64,000 bases of DNA, taken from the NCBI GenBank assembly GCA_964187785.1, contig OZ076409.1, positions 65,412,001 through 65,476,000 on the forward strand. Reading direction: 5' to 3'. The DNA is from Amphiscolops sp. MND2022 (taxonomy: Eukaryota). The notes beneath the pieces are model-generated. The model was not told where the DNA came from, did not search any database, and worked only from the letters and a program-made list of their open reading frames with translations. Below are positions 18,810 to 60,774 of the stretch, one piece after another. Within the stretch, counting starts at the first letter, position 1; every line of letters begins with the position of its first letter. Both the position numbers and the translations under genes were made by a program.

Positions 18810-19002
18810 TGTTACGGAGATAGCAATAGTCGTCTAGACTAATTAGACAGTACCTGCCAAAAAGGACAATTTTCTGTTCTCATGCCATGAACTGTGCTAC
18901 ATGATACATACGATTTAGTTTTTTTGAGATATACAAGTTTGCTACTAATATTCTTCGATTTTAATTCAACTTATTTATTAGACTTTTCCCTAGTCTATTA
19001 CA
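18810..19002 (+). repeat. 5' LTR (193 bp)
   Basis: tgttacggagatagc...gtctattaca; 7 substitutions against the 3' LTR by manual comparison. Confidence 0.95.
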
Positions 19003-19012
19003 TAGCGCAGTC
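19003..19012 (+). promoter_or_regulatory. Primer-binding site, tRNA-Ser-like (TAGCGCAGTC, one change from TGGCGCAGTC)
   Basis: Lies immediately after the 5' LTR; complementary to the ...GACTGCG-CCA 3' end of invertebrate tRNA-Ser. Confidence 0.65.
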
Positions 19013-19030
19013 AAAAAAAACTACCAGAGA

Positions 19031-24208: not shown

Positions 24209-24459
24209 AAAATGGAGACTTTGCTAAAAAAATTTCCAAAGGAAAATCAGGATGTTAGAAGGTCTAGTAGGATAAGAACCGCAAAACGGGTGGAAAAGAT
24301 GGGGGCATAGAATATTGCTGATAACACCTTGTTGGTTTAGAGAAAGACACGACGTCACCCAGGCGCATTATGAATGCTTTCAAGAAGCCCAAGCTGGACC
24401 AGCAAGAGAAGACCGCAGTCAAGAAGTCCAAGGAGTGGTTTCCCTGATTCTTCATCCAC

Positions 24460-24469
24460 AAAAGGGGAA
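24460..24469 (+). promoter_or_regulatory. Polypurine tract
   Basis: aaaaggggaa directly precedes the 3' LTR. Confidence 0.85.
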
Positions 24470-24662
24470 TGTTACGGAGATAGCAATAGTCGTCTAGACT
24501 AATTAGACAGTACCTGCCAAAAAGGACAATGTTCTGTCCTCATGCCATGAACTGTGCTACATGATACATACGATTTAGTTTTTTTGAGATATACAACTTT
24601 GCTACTGATATTCATCGATTTTAATTCAACTTATTTATCAGACTTTTCCCTTGTCTATTACA
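24470..24662 (+). repeat. 3' LTR (193 bp)
   Basis: Direct repeat of 18810..19002. Confidence 0.95.
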
Positions 24663-37668: not shown

Positions 37669-37792
37669 TCAACCTTCGTCCATGGGAACAGGCATCTGCA
37701 TCTCCAGGGTATTTGACCTCTCAAGGATCGGCATTGACATGGTTGAGAGGGAAGATGAAAGTTTTGACTCAGTCGAAACTTCGATTCTATGC
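37669..37792 (-). CDS. HDAC4: HDAC IIa terminal exon 19 (NES-like tail)
   Basis: ttttcag|G CAT ... [29 protein letters not shown], resembling the HDAC4 tail AMASLSV...PMEE. Confidence 0.75.
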
Positions 37793-40700
37793 CTGAAAAA
37801 ACACAAAATTTAAAAAAATATGATATTTTATTGAAGCAGCCATCTAAATGTTGACATACATAAAAGTCTTTAAAAAAATTCTCGAGAAACAGCCTTGAAA
37901 GCTTCGTCATTTCCTTCCTTAAATGGCGACAGAAAGGCAGCGAAATTTTGAAACAACGGAATAACACTTGTCAATAATTAATTAATGGCAATTCGAACAA
38001 AATTATTAATTTCCAAAAGCAAATACAGCCGTAGTATGTTTCTGAGTACGACAAAATTGGCAATTTAAGATCAAAATATATCTTTTAAAAGCGCCTGAAA
38101 CATTATTTTCGGCCCAACAACAGGTCAAAATGGTCGTACGTTGAATCTGCGTATGTGCAGGAGAGCAAGGATGACGTCAGCATTTTTCGATAAACACCTG
38201 ATCAAACGTGGAGTAATTCAATTTCACCCATCACAAGAACAACGAAACACTTCAAACAGAAACAAGTCGGTAACGGCCAAAGTCGGCAACTCGCTAAAGA
38301 CTTAACCTCGACAGTACACCGAGAAGTCGAAAAATTTTTTGCAAGCTTCATTTCGCCACGAATAATAGCCACAGCTCAAATCGATTTTCTGCTTTTGAAA
38401 GCCCTTTACCTAAGCTTTCAAATGCACACTAGTTAAGCTGGGAGTTGGCGCCACGTTTTGGGGTGAGAGTGCCACCCCGGCAGCGCGGGCACGACTTGGC
38501 CAAGCCTTTCAAATGCCGGTCGAACTCATAACTGAAAAAACTTCTATAACGAAAAAACTTCTATATACATTTTCAATGGTGGCCTACTGTGTTACTAGAG
38601 TGGGATAGTAACTTAGCAAACAGCTGCTCAGTTATTTTGAAAAGTTTTTGAAATGTATTTTTCTGCGAATTTTCACTTTTTTCCAGTTACTTTTTTGCCG
38701 GTGGCTCGGAAAAAACTATAATGACATAAATAACCCCGTTAGTCCAATAGAATGCCAATAACAAAGACGAATTTCCGTTTTTCTATATTCTTTTTGTTTG
38801 TTGTAATTTGTTTATTGATTGCGAAAAAATTGCTGTCCTCATTTGAGGACGAAATTACTGTCGAGACTTAGCAGGAAAAAGTTTCGAAATATTGTTCTGA
38901 AATTGCCTCGTGGACCGTTCAGTGTGAATGAGTGGTTTGCACTTTTGAAAGTTATTACAAACCTTCAGTAAAAAACGTCATCTTGATCTGAATGTAGAAG
39001 AAAGCTACTTAGAGATTTCTAACGTAGTTTATTCAGCGTCAGATCAAAATATCATCAATGTTGACTTTTTATAGTGTGTTTGATTTCGAAGGAAAACGAG
39101 GCATTACTTCAACAGATGTAGCTTCACAGAAAAAAAACAAATTGGTGGCGTTGAAAGCGGCCATGAGAAAAAAAAACGATTCAAACAGTCACCATTATTT
39201 TCTTAAATATAAATACTTGCCTACTGTGAAACTTTAGGCCTGTTTTCTCATATTTTTCACTCACTTGTTGACTTTGGCATCGAATAGTTGATTGGAGGTG
39301 AAGATCGGGGGGTTATGGGCGGCAAGAGAGGTCCTGGGGGTAGAGGAAAGGTTCAGTGGCGAGTAGGTGGAGGAAGGTGACGAAGATGGAGACGGCGAGG
39401 AGGAGAAGGCCAGGGCAGAAGAGGAGGACGTGGCTGTAAATGCTGCATTGTGATTTGATAATACCTGATGCTGCTGGTGGGCTAAAGACAGGGGGTGTTG
39501 GTTTATTTGGCTGCTGCTCTTGTGAAGCGGCGAGATTGACTGTGACTGCTGTGATTGCAGAGAGTCTGCTTCCGATTGGCTGATATGCAATTGCTTTTGG
39601 GCAAATTTAATCAATTGTTGGGGCCAATATTGCACATGCGCTTGCAATGTTTGTTCTATAGATCTGATTGCTTCCGGGGAGGGCAAGGCGTCCAGGCTCG
39701 TTTTCTTCACTAACGGCGGGTGCATCCGTCTCATAAACGCTGACTGTTGATGAATCGAGTGGGAGGGCGAAGAACAAGGCGATAAGATGCCTGCTAAGCC
39801 AGCACCCCCTAGTCCTCCCAAACTGCCTACTTCAGATGCCCCTAAAGAGATGTTAGCAGCTCCAGTGGTACCAACAGAAGAGCAGCTGTTGGGGCTGGAA
39901 GTATCCATATTAGATGACGCATACAGCATCTGACAGATACAGGCCACAATGCTTTCTGTCAGCACCTTCAGTTCAAAACCTCCTTCCAAGCAGAGAACAA
40001 CTTTACCGTTGGCCAAGCCCAGAAGTTGTTTCGTCATCCACCCAAAGCCTAAACCAATATTTTTGAAACGAAATTGACACATAATTTCAAATAATTTTCA
40101 AAGCATTATAATCAAAAACTTATATCCCTGGCCTGAACGCATTGAAATTGAATTCATTTCCATGTTTTGGAGGTTCAATGGCATGGTGCTACAATGCGGA
40201 CAATTCACTGGATTAAACATACATGTATACTGAAACCTTGACCTAAAGTCAGGGTTTTGACATCGCTAATTTCTTCCGCTAATTGCTAAACCGCTAATTT
40301 GAAAATCGCTATTTCGCTATTTAGGCTAAAGTATAGACTTACTTATAATCAACCATGTTTGCAAGGTCAACAAAATTTGAGTTACGGGCGCTGTCTAATT
40401 GACTATTTAGCATTTGTTGAGCCCAGCAACTCCTTAATTGGCAGTTAAATTCATTTCCCACAAAGACAATAGTTCGCTTGATATGCTCCGTTGTTGAGCT
40501 GAAAATTTTCTCAGAACGATTCATAAAAAGTATCACTTGACGAGAGCAACATCCCTGCAGAACATCCCGATCAGTCAGAAGGAGCACAGGTCGCGGGAAA
40601 ATCATCTTCATATTATTCTTTGGGCTATTTTCGTCTAGGTAATCAACATTTTATGGCGCTAAAAATATTTTAAGCTTCCTGTATTATTCTTACTTGCACT

Positions 40701-43700
40701 TTCAGTGTGAAGTGTAAACATTTCGAACTTCTTTAGATTTCTCATAACGACATTGATTGAGGTTATATAATGTTTAAATTGATCGGATTCGATACCTTGA
40801 CAAAATTGTCAAATGGGATCGTTGTATCGATTCAAGACTTTGGTGATTGATAATTGAAGTCTAATGCATTTCAACTTCTGCATTTTAGTAGAATGCGTCA
40901 AAATTGTAACTCACAACAGGGCTAGTTGAAGCTTCAAATTTTCAATTCAAGAAACCGCCCACAATATAGTACCTTTGTTTACACCATTTGTGCAAATTTT
41001 CCTGTTTGGAAGTCCAGACACCGAATATTCTAGAGTCAGACGGTCGCCTTACTTCACATTTTAGATGACACTCCTCGTGCAACATCATGCTGTTGATTGC
41101 AAATAGACTAACTTAAAACACTTCGAGATGGCTCTTTACCATTTTGAAGTAAAAGATTGGATAAATTTTTGTCATCAAGATTCTTCTCGAGTATCAAGAA
41201 AGAAACTAGAAGTCAAGATATGCATGGAACATCCGAATACTTTACTTTCTGGTGCCAATTCTTCGCTGAAACTCGAAGAAGGATATTTAGCATGAACTCG
41301 TATTTTTCACCTCCAAAATGATGTTATAATTCTTCGAAAATTCATCCTATCAATTTTTTCCAGAATATGGAACACATTTTAATGTTTCATCATATGAATC
41401 AACATCTCAATTTCAGTTTCATTAAAAAAGCCAGAAACTGCGCACCGCTTCAAACTCTAAAATATGCAAGGATCAGCATATTGAGTAGTATAGTTGGAAT
41501 TCAAGAAGTAAAAAGAAGGACGTTGATCAGGTTCCAAGCCATAGGCTTTGTTCTCTAACCACCATGGCAACTGGACGTTGAGTTCAACCTGTAGAACTTT
41601 TGGTATAACTATTTTGGTTAAATCAACCAGATTGAAACAACAGTTAAAATCATGATAATTGTATTTCATATAATGCCGGAGTTATTGAATATGTAATAAG
41701 AGGGACTGGACTCACATTCGGGAGACACGATGTAGCCGCCCAACTTTTTGCTGTGGCCCCTGCTGGCGTCGAAGCCGGCCGACACCAGAACTACATCTGG
41801 CTGGAAGTGCTGTGCGAAGGGGATGACGACGGCTCGGAACGCGGCCATGTAGTCCTCGTCTGCCATGGGGACATCAGGAGAGGAGGTGAAGCCTACGTTG
41901 ACCGTGTGTCCCGTGCCCAAAGAACAGCCGATCGAACACGGAGATCCTGTGCCAGGGAAGAAGGAGCCATCGTCGTAGCGGTGGATTGATATGTAGAGCA
42001 CGTTGGGGTCCGCCTCGAACGCCTGCTCGGTCCCGTTCCCATGATGCACGTCCTAAAACAGATTAATATACCAATGCACTTCGTCACAAGAAAGAAATGC
42101 AAATTTGAGACCTAGCCAGAAAAGTATGGTTTCGGAAGAAATTTTAAAAAAAAAACTGACAGGTTCTGTCTGAAATGAGGCATTTTCACGATTCTGGCAC
42201 AAAATGTCTTTGAGAAACAGTGAATTGTGAACTTCACATCCGCTCAACAAAATTTCGAAATCTCAATTTTGCAACAAAAATACTTCAGTAGATGGCCCTG
42301 AGCACGAAAACGGCAAACATTATGATGTTCCTAATCTTGGAAGAGCAAAAGCCAAATATCAAAAGCACTTAGACGAAGGAATAGTCATTCAGCATAATAT
42401 AGGAAATAATAGGGAACTAACCCAGTCGACGATTAGGATTCTTTGGGCCAGATTTTTCTTCAGCAAGTTTTTGGCAGCTATGGCAATGTTGTTGAAGTAA
42501 GAGAAACCGCTGAAACAACACCAATCTTCATCTTCACAATATAACAGTTATTTTGCAGATATTGCATAACACTGATCATCTATGGTTTAGCATACAATGA
42601 GCGGTGCTAAGTCAACTAGTGCAAATCAGTTTAAAGTTTGAACACCTTTTGGGATAAATTCAAGTTGACCTGATTTGATTGCAGCTGAATTTTCTTCTGA
42701 TTAACCGACACTCAAAAGTTTCCCCGGGTACTTGGTACTTCAGTGTAGTAAAGTGTGATTAATTACACTTACAGCGGCCTGATGGCCTCAGCGTGGTGAC
42801 CGGGGGGTCGGATGAGGGCGAATGCGTTGGAGAGGTGGTTTGACGCGACCTTCTCCGTCAGCTGAAGTAGCACCCCCACGGCCGAAAGACAGGCCTCGGG
42901 CGACTGTTGCGTGTTCCACACCAAGTCCACATCCACGCCCACTCCCCCACACGGCAGAGTCAACAACTCATTCTTCAGTTCCTCAACCACACTCTCGTCA
43001 GCGCCCGAAAATGCTTGCGCGTACTTCTCACTAAACACAAAACAACATGGCTCATATCCGGGTAACCTCTTAGGTTACCCGGATTTTTTGAGGTCTGAGA
43101 AGCAGAAACACGTGGCGACTTTTTTCCGAAGTGTTTTCAACTGAAGTGCCCAACGTTTTGCGAGCATAGAGGGCCCACCTTAGAGTCTTTCGGCACAATG
43201 CGACATACCGAAGAATTTTTTGAAAAATTTCAAAAAAGTTTTTCAAAACTTTTTCCACACACGTTTTTGAGGTTTCTGTAGAGGAAACCCTTTTCCGAGT
43301 CCTAAGAGTGACCTCTTTGATTATTTTTTTGGTGTTGTGGAACTGATGAGAGTTTTCTCAATAACTGTGGAAATAGGTTTTTTCCGGCACTGTGCGACTG
43401 TTATTCGAAAAATTTTTTTAATTCGTCAAAGGGTACTCCTTGTCTTTCATATATGTTTTTGGCTTGAAAAAAAAAGTATTTTGCGAGCTTAAAGCTCCTT
43501 TTTCGGCACTGAGATTTTTGATGAAATTTTCACAAAAGTTTCCCTTTGCCTAGTAAAAAGCTTTCATTTTTTGAACCTTGAGCAGGCGCCAACTTGGGCC
43601 GTTGCCGGCTCGTTTTTAAAACTACCCAAAACAATTTTAAAATGAACATTATCTAACCAATTGTGGTATAACTCGGGTTTCCGAAATTTGACATTGATGT

Positions 43701-46700
43701 ATTCAATTTGTCAAGTTAAAAACATCAACAACTTACTTGTGGACCATCTGTAGCTCTTCCAAAGTGGTTTCACGGCCCAAAAACACCTGCAATCATCACC
43801 AATTATCATAAACTGTAGATTGAATTTATAGTTCAGCTGAAGCACAGAAGTTATCATTACCCACCCGACAATGCTTGGGTATGTCGAGTTCGAGGAGTCG
43901 CATCCACACGTACTGCAGTCGGAGAGGGGTCTCAAGGTGCTGCTCTGACTCTACGCACGTGCAGCTGTGCTTCAACATGGCCGGATTATATCCCAAACCT
44001 ACAAACACATCACATCACTCAACCTTATACTTACTTTTTTCTATTTGTATTGCCTAAAACAAGAAACGGGCGCAAAGAAACCGCGTTTCTCAACAAGGTT
44101 GTTATAACAGTCCCGCGAAAACAAATGGAAAAAACTTCGACCGGCAGAGGACAAAAGATTGATCATCAATGTGAGCACCAGATTGGTTTGTTTTAATCAC
44201 GTCAACCTTCACCATGCACAGTCGCCGCTATACATGCATCGATCATCATTTAACCTGATGGGGACGAAAAAAATGTACATTTACAAAAAAATGCAGCTTT
44301 GCAGTAACTCAGCTTTGTATATAGTCCCTTGTCAAAAACTACGCAACAAATCGTACAGTTTTTGCCAATACCAAAGTTGTTTAATTCAAATTTACTCGAA
44401 ATCATATAAATTTTTCAGCTTTTTCTTCAAGTACAGCCATAGTTTGAATTACTTGCCTGTCATTTTGTGAACTGTGTTGTGGGACCTGTCATTGCTTTCG
44501 CTTTTGTTGATACTGCTGTTTCTATCGTCATTTTCTACACCTCCTTGCAAGTTCTGAAAAAATACAAGACAACTAAAACATGTACAGATTGATTGATCAG
44601 AAGGGCCTTATAGTTCTTGTTCAAGAACCACCAAATTTTGAGCTTTTTAAAATTAAACCAGACCCGTGTTCGGAGTGCTCGTATTTCTGAGGTCCTTTGA
44701 TTTTATTTCTGGCTCCATTCAAAAAAGCATTGAAAAACTAAGATTACTTTGTAAGCATTTGAGAAGAGCATTTTCTATTGATATATTCGTGGTCGTGAAA
44801 CGACTGCATTAAGTTCACATCGTCAAATCTTATCGTTCCCACCTGTGCCTTTTCCTGTGTTTAAAACGATCTGCTCGGCATTAATATTGAAAATGAGGAC
44901 GGAAATAGGCTAATTTATAATTTATTGCATATTATAGCGATAATTGTCAAAAAGAGCAAAACAAGGTGCTTAAATTGGATAAATTCTGCAGACATAGCAG
45001 TATGAAAAGCACCGACAGAAACCCTTCTCTGGAAACTTCCAAAAACAACTACTGAGCTGGCCGGCCAAGTGGGACCAATTCAATAGCCGCCAAACTTGCC
45101 AGCAGCGGAGGTGCACAGGCGGAAGCTTCATTCGTAATCAAAACTGTTTTCAGAAGTTCGGAGCCTCAATTAGTGGGCAAGAAAAAAGCTTTCAAATGCA
45201 ATGAAAAGCTTCTGGAACCTCAAAACGGATCTGCGGAAGCAAGTACCCGGTGTGATGAATCATTAATGCTACGAGTGTAAAGGAGTGAAAAACTAACAGA
45301 TGAATTTTGCAAGGAGTGCATCATGAAAATTTGATGTTTCTTCAAAACAACTCCTGTGGCGGACGGAGCCGCTGTGGTAGCAGCCGTTGATGGATTGAGG
45401 GCGTGGCCTGCTGAGGGGGACGACTCAGGTGAAGAATGTTGCATGACGAGAGCTTGTTTCGATGTCACTGTTTGAGCGTTTGTAGATACATCATTTGTAG
45501 CAGCAGCGCCACCTAACGGCGAAGCCGTGGAGAAACAGCTGTCGTTTGTAGTTGAATCGGGTGAAGAGCTAATGTAACCGGTACACGCAACACCCCCATG
45601 CGGTGCCACGGAACCACTTGGTGGCGTGATGGTATTCGATGAAGAGTCAGAGTGCCTCTCTCTGATCGTACCGCCGTCTTGAAAAACAGCCGATGACGTC
45701 ATTTTTTGGTGTCTAGGGTCCGAGCTACTGTATGACGTCACGGATGATTCGCCGCCAGAATCAGAAGCCACGTTTCTGTCGCTGCTCATTTCAAAATCCG
45801 ACTCAAACAGTTGATCTGTCTTTTTGTCGCAATCGTTCATAACATGATCCGCGCGGTTTTCGAATTTGGAGGTACTTGCTGGTAACACTTTGCTTCGGTT
45901 CGAACTGGATGAGGAGTTCCTGGAAAGCAATTGATTTTTCTTCTTCTGTTGTAGCTTGGCTTCGAGAGCTTGCACGCCAGGACCTGAAGCACACAATGGT
46001 TTAAGAGAACAGCAATAGGTTGAAACTTGAAACACGAACGCGGTGTTCAATAACTTAGCAATATTTCACGGACTTTTATAAGTTACTTTCTGAGCTTCTT
46101 TGATATATTTTTCAATGAAGGATTAGACCGACTCTAGTTAAACATGGAAGAAACAAACGGTAAAAGTGTAAAACTATTTTTTCGTTGAGACATCTGTTGA
46201 CTAGTTGTTTGTAATAAGTGTAGAAAAGGCATGCAAAATATCATACTCAAGTTGGTACGCAATTCCAAAAAACTACTCCCACCCGGTCGAATTGCTGTTA
46301 CTAACCGCCGTTTTTGATACATGTGCACTTCAACATTGGCGATTGTACAGTGCTCACCTTTGATACTTTCTGTAGAGTTGCTATGATGGGCTGAGGAGCG
46401 CATTGAAGAATGTCTTCTACTGCTGTCTGAGTTGGAGGAGAGTTGCATCTCTGCAAACTGAGGGGTGGGTGGTGGGGGTTGGATTACCACTTTGGGCGGG
46501 TGTGCGTACCTCGTGGTTGGCACGAGGAGGTTGCTTTCACTGCAGACAGGAACAGTGCCAGCGGAAACGGCAGCAGCTAGAGCGGCAGCATTTGAGTAAG
46601 CGTTGTAATAGTAGTTGAACAGTTTATCGAATTCCGCCTTGTTGTTCACTGCGACGGCCCCTCCAAACATGTTTGTCTGTGGGTTAGAGAGGACATTGTT

Positions 46701-49700
46701 GTTGGGGTTGTTAGCAGCGGCGGCAGCAGCAGCCGAGAGAAACAAGGAAGAGGAAGTGGGAATAGCAGACATGGAGGTGGAATTAACTAGTCTAAAAGGT
46801 GTTGTTTGTTGTTGATGTGATTGAAGACTGGCCGCAGCAACTGCAGCCAACTCAGAAGCCGCCGCTGCGTTGCTCGATGATGACGCAGCTCCGAACGGCA
46901 GAAGAGCTGGCATCGGGGGAACAGCGGGCACTTGCGGTGCATTACCCTGCAAATAATGAAAACTCAGTTGCAGAAAAGCTAATGTTTCTAAATGTGTCAA
47001 CTGGGTATTTTTCAATTACTTCCACTTTCAACACAAGATCTAGCTAGCTGGTGCACATTACGAACGAGCCAGGGACAGGCAAAGTCGGCGGCCACTCAAG
47101 ACTAGAAAATCGCTGTTTTTTTTAAATATTTTCAGGAAGATTCTCACAGTGCCGAAAAACCGAAGGGACGGATGCGACACTTTGTGGTCGCTCAGAAAAA
47201 CTTTTACTGACTGAAAACTAGCGGCAAAATCTAATTTTACCTCCGAGGGACGTGGTTTCTTGACAATTCATTGCTTGGCTGGAAAGGAGGCTTTCGATAA
47301 CTTTTTCCTCAGAAAAAGTATTTCTCGAAAATAGAGGAAAATCGGTTCTACTTGAATCAATCTGAAGGTAGTTAAATTTCGATTGGGACCATTTTCAAAG
47401 AAATAGAGTGAGAATCTATCGAAAAAATGCGGAAATCAAAATTCGCCAGTTTTGCAATATGTCAAATTTTTGACGATCATTTCTCGACACTGAAAGCAAG
47501 ACTAGAATAGAAAAGCGGCTTCTTTCAAATTATTCGAAGCATTATTATCTTTCCAAAAAAACATTTGTTGGGAGTCAGGAGAAAGTTTCTTTAATTCTAA
47601 AGAGCAAATTCCGGCATTTTAATGTTGAAAACATGACAAAAAACTGTTATATCTAATATTCCTCCGAAAAATACTCGAACGTAAAAATCTAAACAAGGAT
47701 CTTTCGGATGCTTTGTAGATATTGCGCCCAATTTAGAAAAAGTAAGGACCATTCAATTGTTGTAATCTCGGACACCTTTTTAAGCAAAGCACCGACTACA
47801 GAACTTACCAGTATCCTTCTCAAAGGTGGATGTGAATTTCCATCGTTCGAAGATGATATTGAACTCTCGGATAAATGTCGATGAAGAGCGGGGGTGAATT
47901 CAGTGGCACCGGTTGCCGCCGTGGGCCCATCTCTACTTGTGACGTCATTGGATGATATATTATACCTGGCAGCAACGGCGGCAGCCATTACAGCCGCAGC
48001 AGCCGCATTCTCAGCATTATTCTGCAGCTGCGCGCCTTCGGTACCTGAACATAGAACTCATGACTTAAATGAATCTTGAAGTGAACTCGATGGGTATTGA
48101 AATTTAACACAAGCATGGTTCATTGAAACAACTTGTTCATTTAGATACTGTCAACTCCAGTTTGTTCGTTTCCGGATAGTTCGGATCTCGTTTAATTCGT
48201 ATGTATCTGACACCCCCCATTTCGTGACGACCAAAGAAATACCATCCGGTTAATTCGTATTCATTATTCGAGCAATTTTATTCGATCCCTAGCGATCCGA
48301 ATTAAGCAGATTCAACTGTAGTTCACCGAAGTTTAAGATTTAATGCCTTCCATTGGAAACGAGAAGTTGGATGGTTTTTTAACCTTGCGAGGTAATCTTT
48401 TGCTGGGCGCTATTGTTGGCCAGCATTTGAGCAGCTGCAGCGGCGGCCACCTGCTGAAGATGATGTTGTTGCAAAACAGCTGCTGCTGTCGATAACTGCA
48501 ATTGCTGTTGCTGCCTCAGATGCGGCGAAGGCAATGACATGTTACCCAGCACATTTCCCACACTAGGGGGCAGATCATTCATGCTGCTTTCCAGGGGTGA
48601 CGAGGACGAAGAAGAGCTGGGGTGGTGTAGTATTGCACTGTTAGCTGCAGAATTGGAGGTTGGAGAAGGGGTAAGAAATCGGCCGTGGTGACTCTGAGAT
48701 GTTTGTGAACAAGGGTGGTGGGGTAAAGATGCGAATGGTTGTTTCAAGTTGGTCCCTAGAAGTCCTGCTCCTGCACCCCCTCCAGACGGGCTGCCCGCAG
48801 CGGTGCCGGGATGATTGGGGGAGGGGTGGAAGTTCAGGCCCCCATTGGCGCCTCCTGCTGTTGCCGCAGCTGTGGTTCCGTGGAAGGATGAGGATTTGGA
48901 GATGTTTACGACACTGCTGTTGCTACTTGCATCGCTATTGCTCTGCACTTGAACTGGTACATGCGGAGAAAGACTTCCACATGAGCTCTGAAAAAAACGA
49001 GATGTTTCAACCTTGAACGTTGCACACTATTTCCTTTTCTGCATACTTAACTAACCTCGGCAAACAAAACATATGGCTCTTGATGGAAAAATTATTTTGG
49101 CTCGAACTCACCGAAGATTATATGCAATCATCGTGCTATTTGAACTCCTTAAATTGACCGTAACATAGCTTCCAGAAGCTTTTCCCCCCAAAACTCAGAC
49201 ATCGAAAAACCCAAATTTTGAAAAACAAGCCGGGACCGGCCCAAGTCGGCGCCATATCCAAGGCTCAAAAATAGCAAAAGGACTTCCAAGTGTCAATTTA
49301 CAGTACTCGAAAATCGAAAAAGCAAAAAAATGGACCGAGTGGCGCGCCGGGGCCCGCTAGCGCGAGCCCCTGGCGCGCTAAAAGGGGGACACTTCCGAAA
49401 TTGTCAACATCTTTGTCGCAGTTGAAGGGGGGCTCTTTAGAGAAGAAACAAATTTTCGAAAAAAGTCACAATGCCGAAAAACTGAAAGGGGGACCCTTTG
49501 GGATTTTTAAACACCTAATCTGTTGTAAAGTATCAAAGAAATTGAAGGGGGGACCCTTTGGGGAGAAAAAAATAGAAAAAAGTCTCACAATGCTGAAAAA
49601 CTGAAAGGGGGGACCCTTTGGGGTTTCTCAACATCCATTCTGTCGCAAAACAGCAAAAAATTGAAGGGGGGACCCTTTGGGGAAAAAATTTTCCGGAAAA

Positions 49701-52700
49701 AAGTCTCGCAGTGCCGACAAAAATTGAAAGGGGACTCTTTGGTCTCGCCCGGTATGGTATGTTACGCGGAAAAACAGGTAAAACCATTTTGGTCCAGTTC
49801 GGTAGGCCAAATGGTGCAATTTGACACCGTAATATTTTGTAGAACTTTTAAGAACTATTTTGGTCAGTTCGTGTGGATAGAAAAAAAGTCACTATAATAG
49901 TCGCTTTTCACTTCATGAAGCGCCGACTAAAAAAAGAGAGTCACTATAATAGTAGCGTTTCACTACATGAAGCGCCGACTAAAAAGAGTCACTATAATAG
50001 TCGCCTTTCACTTCATGAAGCGCCGACTAAAAAAAGAGTCACTATAATAGTCGCGTTTCACTCCATGAAGCGCCGACTAAAAAGAGTCACTATAATAGTC
50101 GCCTTTCACTTCATGCAGCGTCGACTGAAAAAATAAATATTATATTTTCTTCGGAAGAAGCCGAAATCAGTTATGAAAGTGAGGGGGTTTGACCAAATGG
50201 AAGTTTTGAAAAAAAAGCGCAGATTCGAAGAAAAGCTGAAAAGGGTCTTTTCCACAATCATTGGAAAATTCATCAGATCCACAGGATCAAAAATTAACAA
50301 AGAAGACACTCTCAAGATTGGGAAAACTATTTGCTTTACATAAAACCTCAAAAACAAAAAATTTCATTTTTTTCACTTCGGTGAGTCGCATAAGGCAAAA
50401 AAACCTAAAGTGGTCATCTATGCTCGCAAAACATTTTGTTTCTGCTGAAAATCGATGGAGCGAAGAGGGCTGTGATAGTTGTCGCTAGAGGGACTACGAA
50501 TGTCTGTGTCCGTTCTAAAGTGTCCGAAACTGGGCTGGCCTCCTCCGCTTCCGCCAGGGGGTTTAGGTTTGAAAAAAAAATCAAAAAAGTTGCATAGAGC
50601 CAAAAAACCCAAAGGGGACCCTTTGGTCTTTCCTCTACTTTTGCAAGCATCAAAATTCGGTTTAGTGCGAGACTCGAACCCATGTACCCCTACTTCCACA
50701 ACATCAAGAAATCCGCGTTAACATCTGGGCCAAGTGGCGGTTAGCTGTTACTGAGTTACAGCTAAAACGGTAGCTCAATAATAGAATGCTTATATAAATC
50801 TGTCAGTTCGCTGGTCTTCAAAAAGCCACTGTTATAGTCGGGTCTTCTCTTCGAGAAGTGCCGGCTAGAAATGAATGATTTGAAAACATCCCGGTAACTT
50901 TTAGAGTTCAGAAAATTTCTCGGCATCGGATATTTTTCCAAAAAGAAATAAAAAAATTGGCTGCAGCACTCCAAATTCAGTTGTACGGAAATGCCATTTA
51001 TCGAAGGTAATTTCATTCCAATCAAGAAATTTCTACAAAGCGACTATAGAACGATTGGTTAAGTGGTAGATCAAAAAGCAGCACGGAACACTCACTTCAT
51101 CGGACAGACGTATGCGAAGAGGGCTGTGATAGTTGTCGCTAGAGGGACTACGAATCTCTGTGTCCGTTCTGAAGTGTCCGAAACTGGGCTGGCCTCCTCC
51201 GCTTCCGCCAGTTGGCGTTGATGACACTCCGTGAGTGTGGTTGCAGCCGAAGTTAAGAGCCAGATCTGAAACACGCCACAATATATTATGCAAGGTCGAA
51301 GAAACGTGAATAAATAAACGTGCTATGGGCTTCTTCAAATCATATCATTATCAACAGCAAAGAAAATTGACAAGACAAAGAAAAGGAAATATGACCTGAT
51401 TTGATACTAAATGCAGCCAACGCCACCAGCAAAATACTTGACAAAGCTAATTGGGTGCCTCACGAGTGAATTTTTAAATGGTAATTATAAAAATGTAACA
51501 AATCTGTCTCAAATTGGTAAAAATTCGAAAGAAAATTTGAGTTAAGAAACATCAAAATTTTGTCAGTCCATAAAGCTATTTTTCTGTAGGGCAAAGTAAT
51601 CAGAAAATGGTTGAAAGCAGAAGGTATTTGTTTCAAGTAAAATTTTTACTCAGCTTGAACTACTTGGCAAGATTTGGTTACAAAAGCTTTCACAGAAACG
51701 AAAATCTGGTATAGTACAGTAAAAAGCTACGATTCTATAAATAGGTAAAGCCGTGGGATTTTGGGGAAAAGGCTTTTAAATATCGCATAATGAATTTAAA
51801 AAACCGCTAGTCTCACAGCAAAGCGATAAAAGCTTTTAAGACAGATTGAAATAGAAACAGCACATTGTGCCAATTAGATAACCTCAGTTTAGAATTACGA
51901 AGAAAAACAACGAGAATACGGAGGAAAAAAAGAGGCTTTAGTGCATTGTTTTAAAACACGAAAGCATTCTCAAAGTTGTAGAAAGTTGTTGGCAGTTCAC
52001 GGCACAAGCTTAGTAATGAAAACACATTTGTACTTTTGCAGAGGAGTTGCTTCAAAAAAATCAGCTGGAGACATTAAAAGCAACAGTAAAAAACTGAAAT
52101 TTTCAAACACACGCGAAATATGGATTGCATAGCTGTCATATATTCAGCACAGAAAACAATCATATTCAAAAAGCCATCAACTGATGAAATTACCAAAAAT
52201 GCCATGCTTTACTAATAAACAACCTACCAAGTTTTGAAAACTTTTCATCCAAATCGAACATGATCTTCGGAATCGGCGCACGATTGCACTGAGATGTCAT
52301 TTTTAGAGGTTAAAATTAAAACATGACAATTGAAAAATAATCTGTCTCAATTTAAATTTAGAACGATGAATTCAGAACAAGTCAGCGCCCCGCTTAAGAC
52401 TCAAAAAAGCAAATTCTCATAGATATGGTCGAGAATAACTATTGAGAAAACTTTAGTCCATCTCACAGTGCCGAAAAATACCTGAATGAGGCACCCTTGA
52501 GACTCAAAAAGTACTTTTCCTCAACTGAAAGCAACAAAGTCACAAATCGACGAAAGGACCCTTTAAGCATGAAAAGAACTTTTTCTGACAAAAATATTCT
52601 ACAAATTTGAGGGTCAAAAACTCTGATGAAATGAAAAATTTGTTTCTGAGAAAAGTGGCACTGTGCCGAAAAAACTTGCCGACCGGTTTTCCCCAGCGAC

Positions 52701-55700
52701 TAAAAACAGTATCTCAACATTGCTACTTGTGTTTGCAACTAATTCACGGAAGTTGCTTTTTCGGCTTTGTGTGAGCACATTTTCGCTTAAACAAGCCAAG
52801 GGCTTTTCTCTGAATAAATTCCCTTTTCTTGACTAGTTGGACTACATGCAACAAGCATTGGATCCGGTTTCACATTTACACTTTAGCTTTGTCAAACCTT
52901 AACATTCTGTTCTGAATAAACTTCAAAGGAGTCAAAATGTAACCTGCACTGTTAGCAGTGAGAAAAGACATGGTTTTGGACTTGGCCAAAGAAGGTGGCT
53001 GTAACAGGTCAACTGAGCTTCTTTTGGTAGCCTGTGATCCAGTGCTGCTCGAGCCAGATCCCCCAGAACTGGCCAGAAATGCAGGGGGGCCTCCGAACAG
53101 GGGACTGGAGCCACAGTTGTTCAAGACGGCGGTACCCACTCCCGGGGGTAGACCTCCAGAGGACAGGGTGGCCAACAAGTGCTGCTTGTTGGCAGCCGCA
53201 GCCGCCACCGCTATTTGTGATTGTAGAGCAGCGGCAGCCAATCTGTTCAAATTAAGAAACGCTATAAACACACAGAATAAATACATAAAAGGTCCCACAA
53301 ACGGCCAATCATATGCTTTACATTAGCAACTGTCAGGTTGAGAAGAATCAGGGAGCAACTAAAAATTTTTAAGAACACCAAGTTTGTGTTTTTGTATCCA
53401 TGCTACGAAACGCATTAGTTCACATGTCGGGAATGGCCAAGCTGGGAACGGCCCAAGTCGGCGCCAGGCTCAAGGTTCAGAGTAGTTATAAATATACAAA
53501 GCGACACTATTGTGAAAAAAATTTCAAATTTACAATGCCAAAAATACCCGAAAGATCAAAACTCCAACTTTTGCAAAATGGAATCATTTGGAAAATGTCT
53601 CATAGTGCCGAAAAACCCAAAAAGCAGATGAACAATTTTTTCGAAAAATTTGCATAATGCCAAAAAGAACAAAGGTGGACCCTTTGAATTCCCATCTACT
53701 TTTGAAAGCATAAAAATTTTGGTCCAGCACAGGATTCGAAATCATGTACACCTGATTCCCACCAACTGTCACAACCGCGGTAACAACTAGGTCAAAAGGT
53801 GTGAGAAAGTTAGCAAGGTCACAAGTTTAAAAAAAATATATAAAATGTGTCAGTTCGGAAAGAAATCCACTAATCTAGTCTGTGTTTTCAATCGAAAGTG
53901 CTGACTAGAAACATGGGGTGCGTAGGTTTTCAATCGGAGTTGAAAACGTTTTAAGCTTTCATTGAATGAAGAGCGCTTAAGAACATCTGGTACAAATAGC
54001 AAACCCGGACGAATTATGGACCACGATTTCTACCTTTATGTGCTTAAAACACCAAGAAACTCAGATGATTCTCATCAGAGCGATAACAGCTAATTTTTCA
54101 AAAATGCTAGCAAAAAACAGTAAGTTGAAGTATTAAAAGATTTCACGAGTTTGCAACATCAGAAGAGGTGATAATCTGCAACAAACCTGTTAGCATGGGC
54201 GGCACCTGCGCCATGAAGATTCTGTAGAGGTGGACCTGAGACGGTGGCGCCTCCCGAGGATGGATGTCCCAAGGGGTGTTCCTCGATGGTGGAGTAGGCC
54301 CGGCCCTGCTCGAGCAAACTCTGTTGCTGCTGTTGTTGATTATGATGGTGGTGGGTGTGCAGTTTCAATTTGCTTCTCAGCATCTTCAAGTTTGGTTCTG
54401 AATCTGAAACAGAAGCAACAAAATTTTATTCCTTCACAAAAACTTTTTTTTTTAAACGAATATGCCAAGTTGCCCCTTGTTTAGCGTTATGGTAGATGTT
54501 TTTTCTCTGTAAAATGCAACAGCTTCAATAAATTTGACTCAAATCCACTTTACGGAAGAGGGTTTTTGAAAAAAATGAACTCTTGTACTTCTCACAACAG
54601 CATTCCAAATCTAAAACTCAATGAACAAGACAGGATCGTCTAAAGTCGGCGCCCCAGTGAAGGCTAAAAAAGCGCTAAGTCTTTTGATTATGCTCAATTA
54701 TGCACAGAGGTGGCTGTCAAAAACGTTCTGGAAAATCGCAGGGCTTTTTAAATTAAAAAAAGTGGCACAGTGCCAAAATACCTCAAGCTCAACCCTCGGA
54801 GCTCAAAAAAACGTTTCTCCTAACTGAAAAGATTAGAAAACACGAAGGGGCGACCCTTTGACGAAACGAAAGAAAAATCTAGAAAAATCGCACAGTGCCA
54901 AAAAACCAAACACAAATCGGGATTTTCCTCGGCCTCGTTTACATTTGCGCTGGATTCGAACCCACGAACTCCTGCTTCCTCGTAATGTGCGCTAAACACT
55001 AGGCCAAAAAGAAAACCTTTTAATCCGGTGGCTACTCAATAACATTTTCTGGTTCATCCACTATGCTGGCGTTATCCGTGACCTAGTTTCACCCGAGGGC
55101 ACTGAAATAGAGCCAGCATATTCAAGTAAATTTAATTACATATCTTAATATACGTTACCTGTAGCTTATATTCACTCATGAAAGCTTCACTCTCTGCATT
55201 ATACGTTCATCTTCATTTTTTATTCCATTCAGTTCATTGCCTCCACGGAAGTATACTCACATGTTTTGCGAAGAGGCTCCTTGGCACAATCCAATTGCAC
55301 TGCTTCTGTATCGGTGGCATCTTTGTGAGTTGCTGTGATACCATAACTATTGCTCCTGAAATAAACGCATAAAATAATGAAATCAACCAACAAATAAGTC
55401 AGTGCAACTCATTCCATATCCACTTCAGTGGACAAAGTTTGAGTAAATTAAAACAAGACAGAATTTTTAGAAAATGTCGATTAACAATAATTTTCATCTT
55501 TAATAAAATGAAATACGGGTAGAAAAGAGCTATATGAAATCCGTTTTAGATTTTCTATTGTAAAAGCTTGGAATTTCCTTGCCTGGTGAGATTTTCTTAC
55601 AAGATCTTGCAAGTCGGCTGTCAAAATAATGCATTGTCGCGAAAGATCTTGCAGAAGAAAACTTGCCAGAATCTTACCCAAAACATTTGAAAGCTAAACT

Positions 55701-58700: not shown

Positions 58701-60774
58701 GATCCAAAACTACTGGATAAATGATTACATTATCATTAGACAAAGAAACTCAGAGGGCAATGAATAACTTGAAACACTTTTGACAATTTCTTTCAGAAGA
58801 CATGGTGCAAAGGCAATAGGTGCTAAACCTAAAACTTCCCGATTTCAACAGAAGCACTCTAACAGTTGGGTAGCGAAAAGGGTACTCACAATGTAAGACA
58901 TCGTTTCGGCTGCTGCTGTTCCATGTTGTGATCCGCCATTACCCCAAAGTAGTTGGAGTTGTTGGACGGCGTGACAGCAGCTGCTAAGGGGTTAATTTGA
59001 TTGTGACGTTGTTGGGCTGCAGCCACCAGGCGCGAGTGGTGAGAGGATGCGGCTCCCAGGGAAGAGCCCAGACTGCCTGAGGAGGAGAGAGCGGCTGATA
59101 TGGGGTGAAGCAGGTAGGAAGACGACATGGGAGCCCCAGTGCCATTGCCCGCACCCGTACCACTATTCTGATGCGACGACAGCTGATGTTGAAGTGACCT
59201 TTGCTGCAACGACCAAAACAAGCATGATAGGACAGACTCCAAAGTTACTCTCGAGATGAGATCCTACTTGAGCAGCTCTAATACTCAGAAATAAGGTCTC
59301 TAATACTACTGAGACTGAATCAAAAACAACTCATGTTTGCATTGAATTCCACGTACGGCGAAATGAAACAGATGAAAACTTCGGTAAAAATATCAAGTCA
59401 TCTTTTACAATGACTCCAATGGTTTTAGATAATGTTTGTAAGATGATCATGAGAATCTTACATCTCTGTGTGGCGGAGAGTGGTGTGCAGAGGAGCTATT
59501 GCTGCTTGGTGAGGTCTGCAGAGACTGCGAGGTGGCCACGTGGTGCGGGTTCAGCTTCGAGTTCATAGCCAGAACGGCATTGGCAGAAAACCGTTTGCTC
59601 AGAATGTGTCGCTGCAACGTGCTCTTAACTTCACTGGAAGCGTTAGCGCCTAGATATGAATGAAAGTATTACTTTTTTGTAATCAAGACATTTAGAGATT
59701 AGCGAATGTAGTATTTTATGAAGGATTTGATTGCTAATTTTAAGCCAGTTTCCACCATTTCTATCTCAAATGACTCAACTAAAAGATGCACAATTCTATT
59801 CTTAGAGTCATTATGATAATCTATATTAATTTTCAGAACATTGCTAAAATTTAGTTCTTCTTACTGTAGCAACTTTTTTCGGATGATGACGCAGTTGCAG
59901 CCTTAGTTGTGGGTCCACTCACAGACCTCAGTAGCTCGTATCTTCCACTGCTGAAGGCGGGAGAGTTTCCAGCTACCACATTACGCCCCGACAAATCCTT
60001 ACCGACTCTTTCCACAGCAGCATATGCAGAATTGGCAGCGGCGATTTCGTGGAACAACTTTCCACACGAGGAGGGCTGGGAGATATTTCCGCCGCCGAAC
60101 CTTGCGGCATTGGCACCTGCGAGCGTAGAACCCTGAGGAAGGCCACCTCCGCTGCCAGTTGCTGCACGAGAGAATATTGCACTGTTCATTGATGAAGATA
60201 TGACCACATCTGCACTGCTGCTCTTGAGGATGTTTCCAGCGCCCGTAAGAGGCGATTTCACTCTTAGATGAGATCCGGAGATGTACGACTGCGGAGAAGT
60301 TGACGCAGAGAGTGAGTTTTGACTGCTGCTGTTTTTACTGGCGATGACAGATGGTGACGTAACACTACTGTTCATGCTGCATGGTGGAATGTTGCCGGAT
60401 GAATAGAAGCTTTCGCTAATAACCTGAATGTCTTCCATGTCAGACTCGCCCTCGCAAATATTCGAATCCATATATTGAGAGGTTGCAGCTGTTGTATCGG
60501 AGGAGGATGAAACTCCGCCCCTGAGTGCGTCGGCTGCTCGGTTGGTTGAAGACCTTCCTCCGCCCGCTGATTCTCCGGTAGCTGCATTTCGTTTGAACTT
60601 CTCCTCCTGTTCGAAGGCATATTCCTCCACCTCCTGTTCCTCCATGTCTTCCCTCTCTTTGTTTTCCTCCAAACTGCAGTCGTCGACGATGCAATTGCTA
60701 GAGAATGTTCCATCAGACCGCGTCACATGAACAGTGGAGTGCGGCTGGGCCTCCCCATCTGTCGAAAACTCCAT
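37669..60774 (-). CDS. HDAC4: Class IIa histone deacetylase (HDAC4/5/7/9 orthologue), 19 coding exons, ~2059 aa
   Basis: Manual join (minus): 60774-59865, 59649-59462, 59203-58890, 55355-55261, 54403-54187, 53242-52944, 51265-51096, 48987-48384, 48044-47809, 46946-46358, 45983-45298, 44553-44457, 43998-43865, 43786-43737, 43030-42773, 42509-42422, 42052-41716, 40048-39265, 37792-37669. Total 6180 nt, all phases compatible. Motifs: [18 protein letters not shown] (MEF2-binding), PLRKTYSEPNLK (14-3-3), [50 protein letters not shown]. Further upstream exon(s) are possible. Confidence 0.93.
39265..40048 (-). CDS. HDAC4: HDAC IIa exon 18
   Basis: [27 protein letters not shown]...; ends AA|GTGAGT (read-through would stop at 39261). 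Confidence 0.9.
41716..42052 (-). CDS. HDAC4: HDAC IIa exon 17
   Basis: DVHHGNGT...[15 protein letters not shown]...VLVSAGFDA...LGGY. Confidence 0.95.
42422..42509 (-). CDS. HDAC4: HDAC IIa exon 16
   Basis: [29 protein letters not shown]. Confidence 0.95.
42773..43030 (-). CDS. HDAC4: HDAC IIa exon 15
   Basis: LPCGGVGVD...[14 protein letters not shown]. Confidence 0.95.
43100..43617 (+). mobile_element. Diverged copy of the Helentron/DINE-1-like repeat (HDAC intron 14)
   Basis: ttcggcac(t/a)(g/a)tgcgac motifs and terminus ggcgccaacttgggccgttgccggctcgtttt. Confidence 0.6.
43737..43786 (-). CDS. HDAC4: HDAC IIa exon 14 (50 bp)
   Basis: [16 protein letters not shown] matches the conserved GRKATLEELQTVH segment; gcag| ... 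AA|GTAAGT. Confidence 0.92.
43865..43998 (-). CDS. HDAC4: HDAC IIa exon 13 (structural Zn ligands CTC...H)
   Basis: [35 protein letters not shown]...HCR. Confidence 0.92.
44457..44553 (-). CDS. HDAC4: HDAC IIa exon 12 (GC donor)
   Basis: ttttcag|AAC ... ACA G|GCAAGT; restores TGLGY with the next exon. Confidence 0.8.
45298..45983 (-). CDS. HDAC4: HDAC IIa exon 11
   Basis: cttcag|GT CCT ... TCT|GTTAGT. Confidence 0.82.
46358..46946 (-). CDS. HDAC4: HDAC IIa exon 10
   Basis: ttgcag|GGT AAT ... AAA G|GTGAGC. Confidence 0.85.
47809..48044 (-). CDS. HDAC4: HDAC IIa exon 9
   Basis: gttcag|GT ACC ... CTG|GTAAGT; contains LHRHLSESS. Confidence 0.85.
48146..48320. mobile_element. Small TA-flanked Tc1/mariner (pogo/Tigger-like) MITE
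   Basis: TActgtcaactc...ttcg versus cgaattaagcagattcaactgTA; weak TIRs. Confidence 0.4.
48384..48987 (-). CDS. HDAC4: HDAC IIa exon 8
   Basis: tttttcag|AGC ... CAA G|GTTAAA; overlaps ORF 48379..48948. Confidence 0.85.
49225..50132 (-). mobile_element. Well-preserved Helentron/DINE-1-like repeat with internal tandem subunits and a 5x iterated terminal hairpin
   Basis: Terminus acaagccgggaccggcccaagtcggcgcc; internal aagggggacccttt subunits; five copies of gtcactataatagtcgc.tttcacttcatgaagcgccgact. Confidence 0.85.
50133..50870 (-). mobile_element. Older subfamily copy of the same repeat, containing an HDAC exon fragment and a tRNA-like module
   Basis: aaaggggacccttt motif, gagactcgaacccat B-box-like segment, and terminal gccactgttatagtcggg...gtgccggctag hairpin. 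Confidence 0.65.
51096..51265 (-). CDS. HDAC4: HDAC IIa exon 7
   Basis: tttcag|AT CTG ... GAA|GTGAGT; needed to bridge phase 1 to phase 0. Confidence 0.82.
52944..53242 (-). CDS. HDAC4: HDAC IIa exon 6
   Basis: gaacag|A TTG GCT ... GCA G|GTTACA; Ala/Gly/Ser-rich. Confidence 0.8.
54187..54403 (-). CDS. HDAC4: HDAC IIa exon 5 (starts [14 protein letters not shown])
   Basis: tttcag|AT TCA GAA CCA AAC; donor AG|GTTTGT. Confidence 0.88.
55261..55355 (-). CDS. HDAC4: HDAC IIa exon 4 (ends PLRKT)
   Basis: tttcag|G ... ACA T|GTGAGT; first half of the 14-3-3 motif. Confidence 0.9.
56654..57304 (+). mobile_element. Young copy of the Helentron/DINE-1-like repeat (HDAC intron 3)
   Basis: tttttagtcggcgcttcatgaagtgaaacgcgact ... 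ggcgccgacttgggccggtcccgcttgttt; closely similar reverse complement of 61983..62624. Confidence 0.88.
58890..59203 (-). CDS. HDAC4: HDAC IIa exon 3
   Basis: ttgcag|CAA ... TT|GTGAGT; phases 0/2 fit neighbours. Confidence 0.85.
59462..59649 (-). CDS. HDAC4: HDAC IIa exon 2 (MEF2-binding motif)
   Basis: [20 protein letters not shown]; ctag| ... GAT|GTAAGA. Confidence 0.9.
59865..60774 (-). CDS. HDAC4: HDAC IIa coding exon 1 (acidic/Ser-rich N-terminus)
   Basis: Acceptor tttag|TGGG-ATG (exon starts 60778); donor A|GTAAGA; open frame. Confidence 0.8.

What the first reader, a model, noticed from the sequence alone, without database searches (positions are those of the whole stretch)
39975..39977. 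Invertebrate class IIa HDAC with Phe at the catalytic Tyr/His position (LEGGF): possible independent pseudo-enzyme
Seen: the codon after L-E-G-G is TTT (Phe), while the His-His dyad (RPPGHH), catalytic Zn ligands (DWDVHH, GFDA) and structural Zn ligands (CTC..H, LPCGG) are intact. Established: active HDACs have Tyr here, vertebrate class IIa enzymes have His (HDAC4 H976) and are nearly inactive, invertebrate class IIa orthologues such as Drosophila HDAC4 keep Tyr, and engineered Tyr-to-Phe (HDAC8 Y306F) is used as an inactive substrate-trapping mutant. Inference: this lineage lost deacetylase activity by a different route and the protein may be an acetyl-lysine reader or corepressor scaffold.
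Basis: partly seen in the sequence, partly recalled or inferred. Interest (0 to 1): 0.85.

Follow-up and report, generated by a model that had tools for sequence, protein, structure and literature searches.

The report
Invertebrate HDAC4 missing its catalytic tyrosine
The only HDAC4-type gene found in this invertebrate (likely an acoel worm) has phenylalanine where working deacetylases have a catalytic tyrosine; a related species and sea squirts have the same change, so this enzyme likely lost most of its activity several times in animals, not just in vertebrates.

Summary
Confirmed. 39977-39975 reads TTT (Phe) after L-E-G-G on the minus strand. It lies in an intact 19-exon, ~2,060-aa class IIa HDAC model, the only such locus found in G000. 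A related species also has LEGGF (P0298, 76% identical), so an assembly error is unlikely. The His dyad and all catalytic and structural zinc ligands are kept.

Phe is not unique to this lineage. Of 64 full class IIa domains surveyed, 41 have Tyr, 19 His (vertebrate clade) and 4 Phe. The four form a tunicate clade (Ciona, Styela) that also lost the zinc ligand Asp934. This host is not a tunicate by mitochondrial code, is probably an acoel, and lacks the tunicate changes. Amphioxus, ambulacrarians and protostomes keep Tyr, so the two Phe origins are likely independent; the gene tree cannot decide (AU p=0.41).

Best reading (0.62): a near-dead, MEF2-tethered corepressor or acetyl-lysine binder. 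HDAC8 Y306F loses 290-fold in kcat with KM nearly unchanged. Activity is untested, no reads were available, and two SMRT-surface residues changed. No paper searched mentions natural Phe, but Lahm 2007 was not readable. The scan earlier found only Tyr-bearing fungal class IIa genes. New variant; interest 0.55.

The parts
39975..39977 (-). Phe codon TTT at the human HDAC4 H976 / HDAC8 Y306 column (residue 1782 of the model)
39265..40048 (-). Exon 18: end of the deacetylase domain with LEGGF (39975-39989), a Ser/Gly-rich insert, the class IIa C-terminal helix and a low-complexity tail. If the GTGAGT donor at 39264 is not used, the frame stops at 39261.
37669..37792 (-). Predicted exon 19: in phase with exon 18, ends in P-M-D-E-G-stop; 26 of 53 class IIa homologues end in a PM[DE] motif
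   Evidence: inferred, no RNA
41716..42052 (-). Exon 17: catalytic zinc ligands D840 (42050-42052), H842 (42044-42046), D934 (41768-41770), and F871
   Evidence: PF00850 E=2e-32
42422..42509 (-). Exon 16: G811-F812 kept; C813 replaced by Ser (42500-42502), seen in none of the other 68 domains
42773..43030 (-). Exon 15: structural-zinc C751 (42949-42951), D759, lineage-specific T760L (42922-42924), His dyad H802/H803 (42793-42798)
43737..43786 (-). Exon 14 (deacetylase domain)
43865..43998 (-). Exon 13: start of the deacetylase domain; structural-zinc C667, C669, H675 (43937-43963)
44457..44553 (-). Exon 12, followed by a GC-AG intron
45298..53242 (-). Predicted exons 6-11 (53242-52944, 51265-51096, 48987-48384, 48044-47809, 46946-46358, 45983-45298): Ser/Ala/Gln-rich low-complexity region; the exon 11 donor is uncertain
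   Evidence: phase-consistent model, no RNA
54187..55355 (-). Exons 4-5 (55355-55261, 54403-54187): 14-3-3 site R-K-T-Y-S-E-P across the junction (HDAC4 S246 equivalent) and the adjoining basic NLS-like stretch
58890..59203 (-). Predicted exon 3 (low complexity)
59462..59649 (-). Exon 2: MEF2-binding-type motif (A-N-A-S-S-E-V-K...), like the motif in Styela and Ciona orthologues
   Evidence: no Pfam hit, so assigned by motif likeness
59865..60774 (-). First coding exon of the model (ATG at 60774; an AG just upstream allows a further 5' exon)

Best explanation
This is the animal's intact HDAC4/5/7/9 orthologue with Phe fixed in place of the catalytic Tyr, and it likely works as a near-inactive corepressor whose pocket would still bind acetyl-lysine but hydrolyse it about a hundred-fold more slowly. 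Shown: the intact gene, the Phe in two related species, kept zinc ligands and His dyad, and a MEF2-type motif, one 14-3-3 site and a MEF2 gene in the genome. Inferred from other HDACs: the Tyr hydroxyl stabilises the oxyanion, so removing it cuts turnover but spares binding. Inferred mechanism: MEF2 tethers the protein to target genes; phosphorylation and 14-3-3 shuttle it out of the nucleus; the folded zinc pocket holds an acetylated or mimic peptide, and a class I enzyme (an HDAC3-like gene is present) does the deacetylation. Inferred history: Tyr is ancestral and was lost separately in vertebrates (one base change to His), tunicates (Phe plus Asp934Ser) and this probable acoel lineage (Phe).
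For: Phe shared by a second species. One class IIa locus only, while the four other HDAC domains whose motif lay inside the fetched loci (two HDAC6-type, one HDAC10-like, one HDAC3-like) all keep Tyr. 19 of 21 SMRT-surface residues and all 9 dyad and zinc residues kept (residue list from PMC4498904). HDAC8 Y306F: kcat -290x, KM -2x (PMC8278956 passages). HDAC4 H976F is at or below wild-type His activity (PMC4637209 passages). His-to-Tyr switches on acetyl-lysine activity in HDAC5 (PMC12953687 passages). Catalysis is partly dispensable even in Tyr-bearing Drosophila HDAC4 (PMC10763444; PMC3857321). A more distant relative's matching exon (P0122, 65% identical) has H803L, a further catalytic loss (one sequence). 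Tyr in 14 named outgroups including amphioxus, sea cucumber, acorn worm, brachiopod, flatworms, a sponge and Sphaeroforma. Host mitochondrial AGA/AGG align to Ser 8, Ala 4, Gly 0 of 14, so not the tunicate code.
Against: No activity or binding measured. Y-to-F leaves measurable residual turnover in HDAC8. T760L and C813S alter residues whose mutation impairs SMRT binding in HDAC4; the other 68 domains all keep T760 and 65 of them keep C813. No NCoR/SMRT gene was found (PF15784: 0 matches; GSI-motif pattern: 35 matches, none of the 6 inspected in a convincing NCoR frame), although these searches are weak on split genes. Only 1 of the 3 canonical 14-3-3 sites is recognisable. The domain is on a long branch (1.2-1.5 changes per site), so relaxed selection is possible. 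The gene tree does not reject one origin of Phe with tunicates (p-AU 0.41).
Confidence: 0.62

Rival explanations
1. It is still a real enzyme but for another acyl group or amide: Phe, with C813S and T760L, reshapes the pocket, and the oxyanion is stabilised by zinc or water.
For: All catalytic zinc ligands and both histidines are kept, unlike tunicates. His-type class IIa enzymes turn over trifluoroacetyl-lysine well. An unknown natural substrate is a standing hypothesis for vertebrate class IIa (PMC9902726). The two extra pocket and rim changes are unique to this lineage, and T760L is present in 3 of 3 related sequences.
Against: A relative's matching exon has lost H803. Several other lineages lose zinc ligands outright, which points to loss of catalysis, not re-tuning.
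Confidence: 0.18
2. Relaxed selection: catalysis and the pocket are simply dispensable, Phe drifted in, and the protein represses through its N-terminal MEF2 motif with the domain kept only as a fold.
For: Long branch. Fly phenotypes are partly independent of catalysis. Scattered, different lesions occur in copepods, a nematode and a sponge. The NCoR partner was not found.
Against: 19 of 21 rim residues and every zinc ligand are kept. The domain part is 93% identical between two species while the adjoining low-complexity insert diverges freely. Every loss at this column keeps an aromatic or imidazole ring.
Confidence: 0.14
3. Phe in this gene and in tunicates has one origin.
For: AU test does not reject a joint clade (p=0.41).
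Against: Non-tunicate mitochondrial code. None of the tunicate changes is present (D934S, G811A, G844C, the three-residue insertion after C751). Tyr is found in amphioxus, ambulacrarians and protostomes. Only 1 column is shared exclusively with tunicates, the same as with vertebrates or with amphioxus plus ambulacrarians.
Confidence: 0.04
4. Assembly error, rare allele or pseudogene.
For: No reads or RNA could be examined.
Against: Same Phe in a second species. Open 2,059-aa frame over 19 phase-consistent exons. No second class IIa locus found.
Confidence: 0.02

Closest known systems
Vertebrate class IIa HDACs (HDAC4, 5, 7, 9; PDB 2vqj, 5zoo, 3c0y)
   Same: Domain 48-52% identical. Same structural zinc site, MEF2-type motif, S246-type 14-3-3 site, C-terminal PM[DE] motif, and loss of the catalytic Tyr.
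   Different: Phe instead of His, so no ring nitrogen. T760L and C813S on the SMRT rim. Only 1 of 3 14-3-3 sites recognisable. About twice as long (~2,060 aa) through low-complexity sequence. Single gene found.
Tunicate class IIa HDAC (Ciona intestinalis UniRef100_F6R4S6, Styela clava XP_039267338.2, two unnamed ENA proteins)
   Same: Phe at the H976 column (LEGGFE), His dyad kept.
   Different: Tunicates also carry D934S (a catalytic zinc ligand lost), G811A, G844C and an insertion after C751. The window protein has none of these and keeps the full zinc site.
Tyr-type invertebrate class IIa HDACs (Drosophila HDAC4 Y1142; Branchiostoma, Apostichopus, Glandiceps, Lingula, flatworms)
   Same: Orthologue with the same domain layout and zinc sites.
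   Different: They keep the Tyr hydroxyl.
Engineered substrate-trap mutants HDAC8 Y306F and HDAC4 H976F
   Same: Same residue at the same column, with an otherwise complete active site.
   Different: Here it is the natural wild-type state, fixed in at least two species.

Membership tests
Class IIa HDAC (HDAC4/5/7/9 orthologue) | Zinc-dependent deacetylase domain (PF00850) closest to HDAC4/7 | tested here: met
   inside the class IIa clade, 100% SH-aLRT against HDAC6
Class IIa HDAC (HDAC4/5/7/9 orthologue) | Structural zinc site C667, C669, H675, C751 | tested here: met
Class IIa HDAC (HDAC4/5/7/9 orthologue) | N-terminal MEF2-binding motif | tested here: met
   motif likeness to Styela and Ciona orthologues; no Pfam hit on that exon; MEF2 gene in genome; binding not tested
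Class IIa HDAC (HDAC4/5/7/9 orthologue) | Three 14-3-3 phospho-sites | tested here: inconclusive
   the S246-type site is present; S467 and S632 types are not recognisable in the model, which lacks RNA support
Class IIa HDAC (HDAC4/5/7/9 orthologue) | C-terminal export region ending in PM[DE] | tested here: met
   predicted exon 19; export function not tested
Catalytically competent classical HDAC | Oxyanion-stabilising Tyr | tested here: not met
   Phe
Catalytically competent classical HDAC | His-His dyad and Asp/His/Asp zinc ligands | tested here: met
Vertebrate-type (His) class IIa | His at 976 | tested here: not met
Tunicate-type (Phe) class IIa | D934S, G811A, G844C and insertion after C751 | tested here: not met
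   0 of 4 features present
Pseudo-deacetylase / acetyl-lysine reader | Measured loss of activity with binding kept | not testable with these tools
   inferred from HDAC8 Y306F and HDAC4 H976F
SMRT/NCoR-HDAC3 scaffold | Intact SMRT-binding rim and a partner in the genome | tested here: inconclusive
   19 of 21 rim residues kept; HDAC3-like gene present; NCoR not found

The most novel reading that the evidence does not exclude
Class IIa HDACs have been switched off again and again across animals: His in vertebrates, Phe plus loss of a zinc ligand in tunicates, Phe in acoels, and zinc-ligand losses in copepods, a nematode and sponges. Selection favoured a non-catalytic acetyl-lysine-reading pocket each time. 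This gene is the cleanest natural case, a wild-type substrate trap that differs from an active enzyme by one hydroxyl, and it can be used to pull out the pocket's true ligand.
Probability: 0.35. Interest if true: 0.8.

Novelty: new variant of a known kind. Interest (0 to 1): 0.55.

Why it matters
Reviews present the Tyr-to-His loss as a vertebrate trait and call its reason unclear, with two hypotheses: a reader role, or a bulkier unknown substrate that fits the pocket opened by His (PMC9902726; PMC7288346). Separate losses by Phe can tell these apart. Phe removes the hydroxyl without necessarily opening the pocket, so convergence on Phe would favour selection against catalysis itself. It also warns that 'invertebrate class IIa equals active enzyme' fails for Ciona, a main chordate model, and probably for some acoels used in regeneration work, where HDAC inhibitors are interpreted gene by gene.

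Tried and rejected
Sequencing runs: none was listed, so no read or RNA check was possible; this is no evidence either way. Protein search with exon 17 was swamped by two-domain HDAC6 and capped at 2,000 aa, below this protein's length. Search with last-exon residues 1-145 scored nothing. The metagenome scan gave one unrelated class IIa with Tyr (L013). The single-sequence fold of the Ciona protein was uninformative (pLDDT 38); no fold search was run, and the window's spliced domain could not be folded. The search for a tunicate cellulose-synthase marker (PF01341) rang nowhere, controls included, so it was discarded. Exact look-up of the COX1 protein found nothing. NCoR/SMRT was not found by Pfam or by GSI-motif pattern (35 matches, 6 inspected); this was treated as inconclusive. 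Careful IQ-TREE runs did not finish; quick trees were used. No complex prediction was sent, since the spliced domain and the partner were unavailable. Papers not held: Lahm 2007, Schuetz 2008 (49), Bottomley 2008 (50), PMC4747815. Rejected: error or pseudogene, a second Tyr-bearing paralogue, and tunicate identity of the host.

Full report
OBSERVATION. Window 39975-39977 is TTT on the minus strand, the fifth codon of L-E-G-G-F-E-L. It aligns with the catalytic Tyr of HDAC6 and of the H976Y HDAC4 construct and with His976 in a 69-row class IIa alignment. Six exons (43998-43865, 43786-43737, 43030-42773, 42509-42422, 42052-41716, 40048 onward) join at AG/GT sites into one open frame. Twelve upstream exons chain in phase to an ATG at 60774, one intron being GC-AG. 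A strong GTGAGT donor at 39264 and an in-phase exon at 37792-37669 give a C-terminus ending P-M-D-E-G; 26 of 53 homologues with a long enough tail end in PM[DE]. The model is 2,059 aa with one stop. It has no RNA support, and the exon 11 donor is a guess among three.

IS IT REAL? No sequencing run was listed, so reads were not seen. A 45-residue search returned 2 proteins among 10 candidates. P0297 is identical and comes from another ENA contig, possibly the same source. P0298 is from a different species, 76% identical over the frame, and also reads LEGGFEL. G000 searches with three exons gave one class IIa locus (the tool warns counts are lower bounds). The four other HDAC domains whose motif fell inside the fetched loci keep Tyr; for the HDAC1-like and HDAC8-like loci the motif was outside the stretch (these family labels are from recalled motifs).

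ANATOMY. Kept: H802, H803, D840, H842, D934; structural C667, C669, H675, C751; F812, F871, L943. Of the 21 HDAC4 surface residues needed for SMRT binding (PMC4498904, passages), 19 are kept; complete His-type rows keep 19-21 and complete Tyr-type rows 15-21. The two changes are unusual. T760L occurs in 0 of the other 68 domains. C813S also occurs in 0 of 68 (65 Cys, 2 gaps, 1 Thr in a gapped row). T760L is shared by P0121 and P0122. The N-terminus has a MEF2-type motif and one canonical 14-3-3 site; the other two sites seen in vertebrates, tunicates and amphioxus were not recognisable. The genome has a MEF2 gene and an HDAC3-like gene. NCoR/SMRT was not found.

SURVEY. Exon 15 against 1.84 billion cluster representatives gave 376 hits, 150 listed. 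Of these 150, 64 were class IIa proteins spanning the domain: Tyr 41, His 19, Phe 4. The other 86 were fragments, partial domains or HDAC6-type proteins and were dropped. A looser count over 155 sequences gave Tyr 44, His 23, Phe 4 among class IIa rows reaching the column. The His rows form one clade (100%) holding named fishes, a shark and a lamprey. The four Phe rows form one clade (100%) with Ciona intestinalis and Styela clava named and two unnamed. All four also carry D934S, G811A, G844C and an insertion after C751. Named Tyr rows include Branchiostoma, Apostichopus, Glandiceps, Lingula, Macrostomum, Dicrocoelium, Mesocestoides, a rotifer, a mite, an isopod, a copepod, a nematode, Sycon and Sphaeroforma. 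So Tyr is ancestral; two earlier scan notes on Tyr-bearing fungal class IIa genes agree (unchecked beyond Sphaeroforma). Some Tyr rows have other lesions: D840A in Lepeophtheirus and relatives, D840G in Parastrongyloides, D934N in P0171, and H803Q/D840S/H842T in a Sycon protein. These were not checked against paralogues or reads. P0122, 65% identical to exon 15, has H803L.

HOST. The single COX1 match lies on a 14,704-base contig. Its 14 AGA/AGG codons face Ser 8, Ala 4, Tyr 1, Trp 1 and Gly 0 in human COX1, and 6 of 10 ATA face Met. This fits table 5 and not the tunicate, vertebrate, or flatworm/echinoderm codes (tables recalled). Gene order (nad2 named by elimination) shares 4 of 12 signed adjacencies with the acoel Symsagittifera roscoffensis (table in PMC2973942, passages); chance is 0.003. 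It also shares a five-gene block nad3/nad4L/cob/nad1/nad2 with two genes swapped. The paper says that order resembles no other taxon. The order is not identical and GC is 34% against 25%, so this is a different species. A later paper warns that acoel gene orders vary widely (PMC5431833, passages). I put 'acoel' at about 0.8 and 'not a tunicate' at above 0.95.

INDEPENDENCE. The gene tree leaves the window protein on a long unresolved branch (quick trees). With the 976 column removed, a joint clade with tunicates is not rejected (17 rows, p-AU 0.41). Independence therefore rests on the host's lineage, the Tyr-bearing groups between, and the absence of all four tunicate features. Tyr codons reach His and Phe by one base each, whereas His and Phe are two apart, so vertebrates and tunicates most simply lost Tyr separately too (inference).

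MECHANISM. The Tyr hydroxyl stabilises the oxyanion; HDAC5 gains acetyl-lysine activity on His-to-Tyr and otherwise works only on trifluoroacetyl-lysine (PMC12953687, passages). HDAC8 Y306F drops kcat 290-fold and KM 2-fold (PMC8278956, passages quoting earlier kinetics). HDAC4 H976F was like wild type on other substrates and below it on MAP1S (PMC4637209, passages). Vertebrate class IIa domains scaffold SMRT/NCoR-HDAC3 through the pocket rim (PMC6294515, passages). In Drosophila, which has Tyr, some HDAC4 effects do not need catalysis and one does (PMC10763444; PMC3857321; passages). Best reading (0.62): a MEF2-tethered, phospho-shuttled corepressor with a binding-competent, slow pocket. Rivals: changed substrate (0.18), relaxed selection (0.14), shared origin with tunicates (0.04), artefact (0.02). 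The rim changes and the missing NCoR count against the classic SMRT scaffold in particular.

LITERATURE. Eight searches aimed at prior mention (listings and abstracts) and passage searches in two reviews (PMC7288346; PMC9902726) and an ascidian HDAC preprint (10.1101/433854) showed no mention of natural Phe in acoels or tunicates. The reviews describe the loss as Tyr-to-His in vertebrates, reason unclear. Lahm 2007, Schuetz 2008 and Bottomley 2008 were not held. From recall, Lahm states that Tyr is kept in all HDACs except vertebrate class IIa, but its alignments or supplements may show Ciona. bioRxiv supplements were closed. Ciona sequences have long been public, so the tunicate state may be known.

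VERDICT. It is a new variant of a known kind: a second chemical route to a state already known in vertebrates, and shared with tunicates. Its value lies in the pattern of repeated loss, which makes the open question of why class IIa HDACs gave up catalysis testable.

Noticed in passing
P0161, P0214, P0181, P0261 (tunicate clade): Tunicate class IIa HDACs have Phe976 and also lose the catalytic zinc ligand Asp934 (Ser), with G811A and G844C: a more complete pseudo-enzyme than the window's, in the sister group of vertebrates.
   Followed up: partly
P0168/P0301 (Lepeophtheirus), P0146, P0125, P0217; P0262 (Parastrongyloides); P0171; P0249 (Sycon): Tyr-bearing class IIa proteins with other active-site losses: D840A in a copepod and related rows, D840G, D934N, and H803Q/D840S/H842T.
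   Followed up: partly
P0122 (unnamed ENA, 65% identical to window 42775-43029): Matching exon of a more distant relative with the general-acid His803 replaced by Leu and a changed LPCGG motif.
   Followed up: partly
P0024 (Scyliorhinus torazame HDAC6): The first catalytic domain reads LEGGF; 1 of 120 proteins.
   Followed up: no
window 44456-43999 (-): GC-AG intron just before the deacetylase domain.
   Followed up: yes
window about 50557-50460 (-): A roughly 100-base near-identical copy of the interior of exon 7 (51265-51096) sits in the next intron among repeats.
   Followed up: partly
window 18810-24662 (+): Degenerate Ty3/gypsy-type LTR element: 193-base direct repeats 96% alike; gag, RNase H and integrase Pfam hits in broken frames.
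   Followed up: partly
G000:C6:23819261 and 23825194 (L006, L007): Two HDAC1-like exon sets 6 kb apart with near-identical flanks: a tandem duplicate or an assembly duplication.
   Followed up: no
G000:C1929 (L011, L012): Mitochondrial genome of 14,704 bases with genes on both strands, no atp8 frame seen, nad4L apart from nad4, and a short tandem duplication at the 5' end of nad4.
   Followed up: partly
window introns, e.g. 49300-50100, 56700-57300, 62000-62600: A recurrent dispersed repeat family (GGGTCCCCCCTT-type units with internal tandem arrays) fills several introns of the gene.
   Followed up: no
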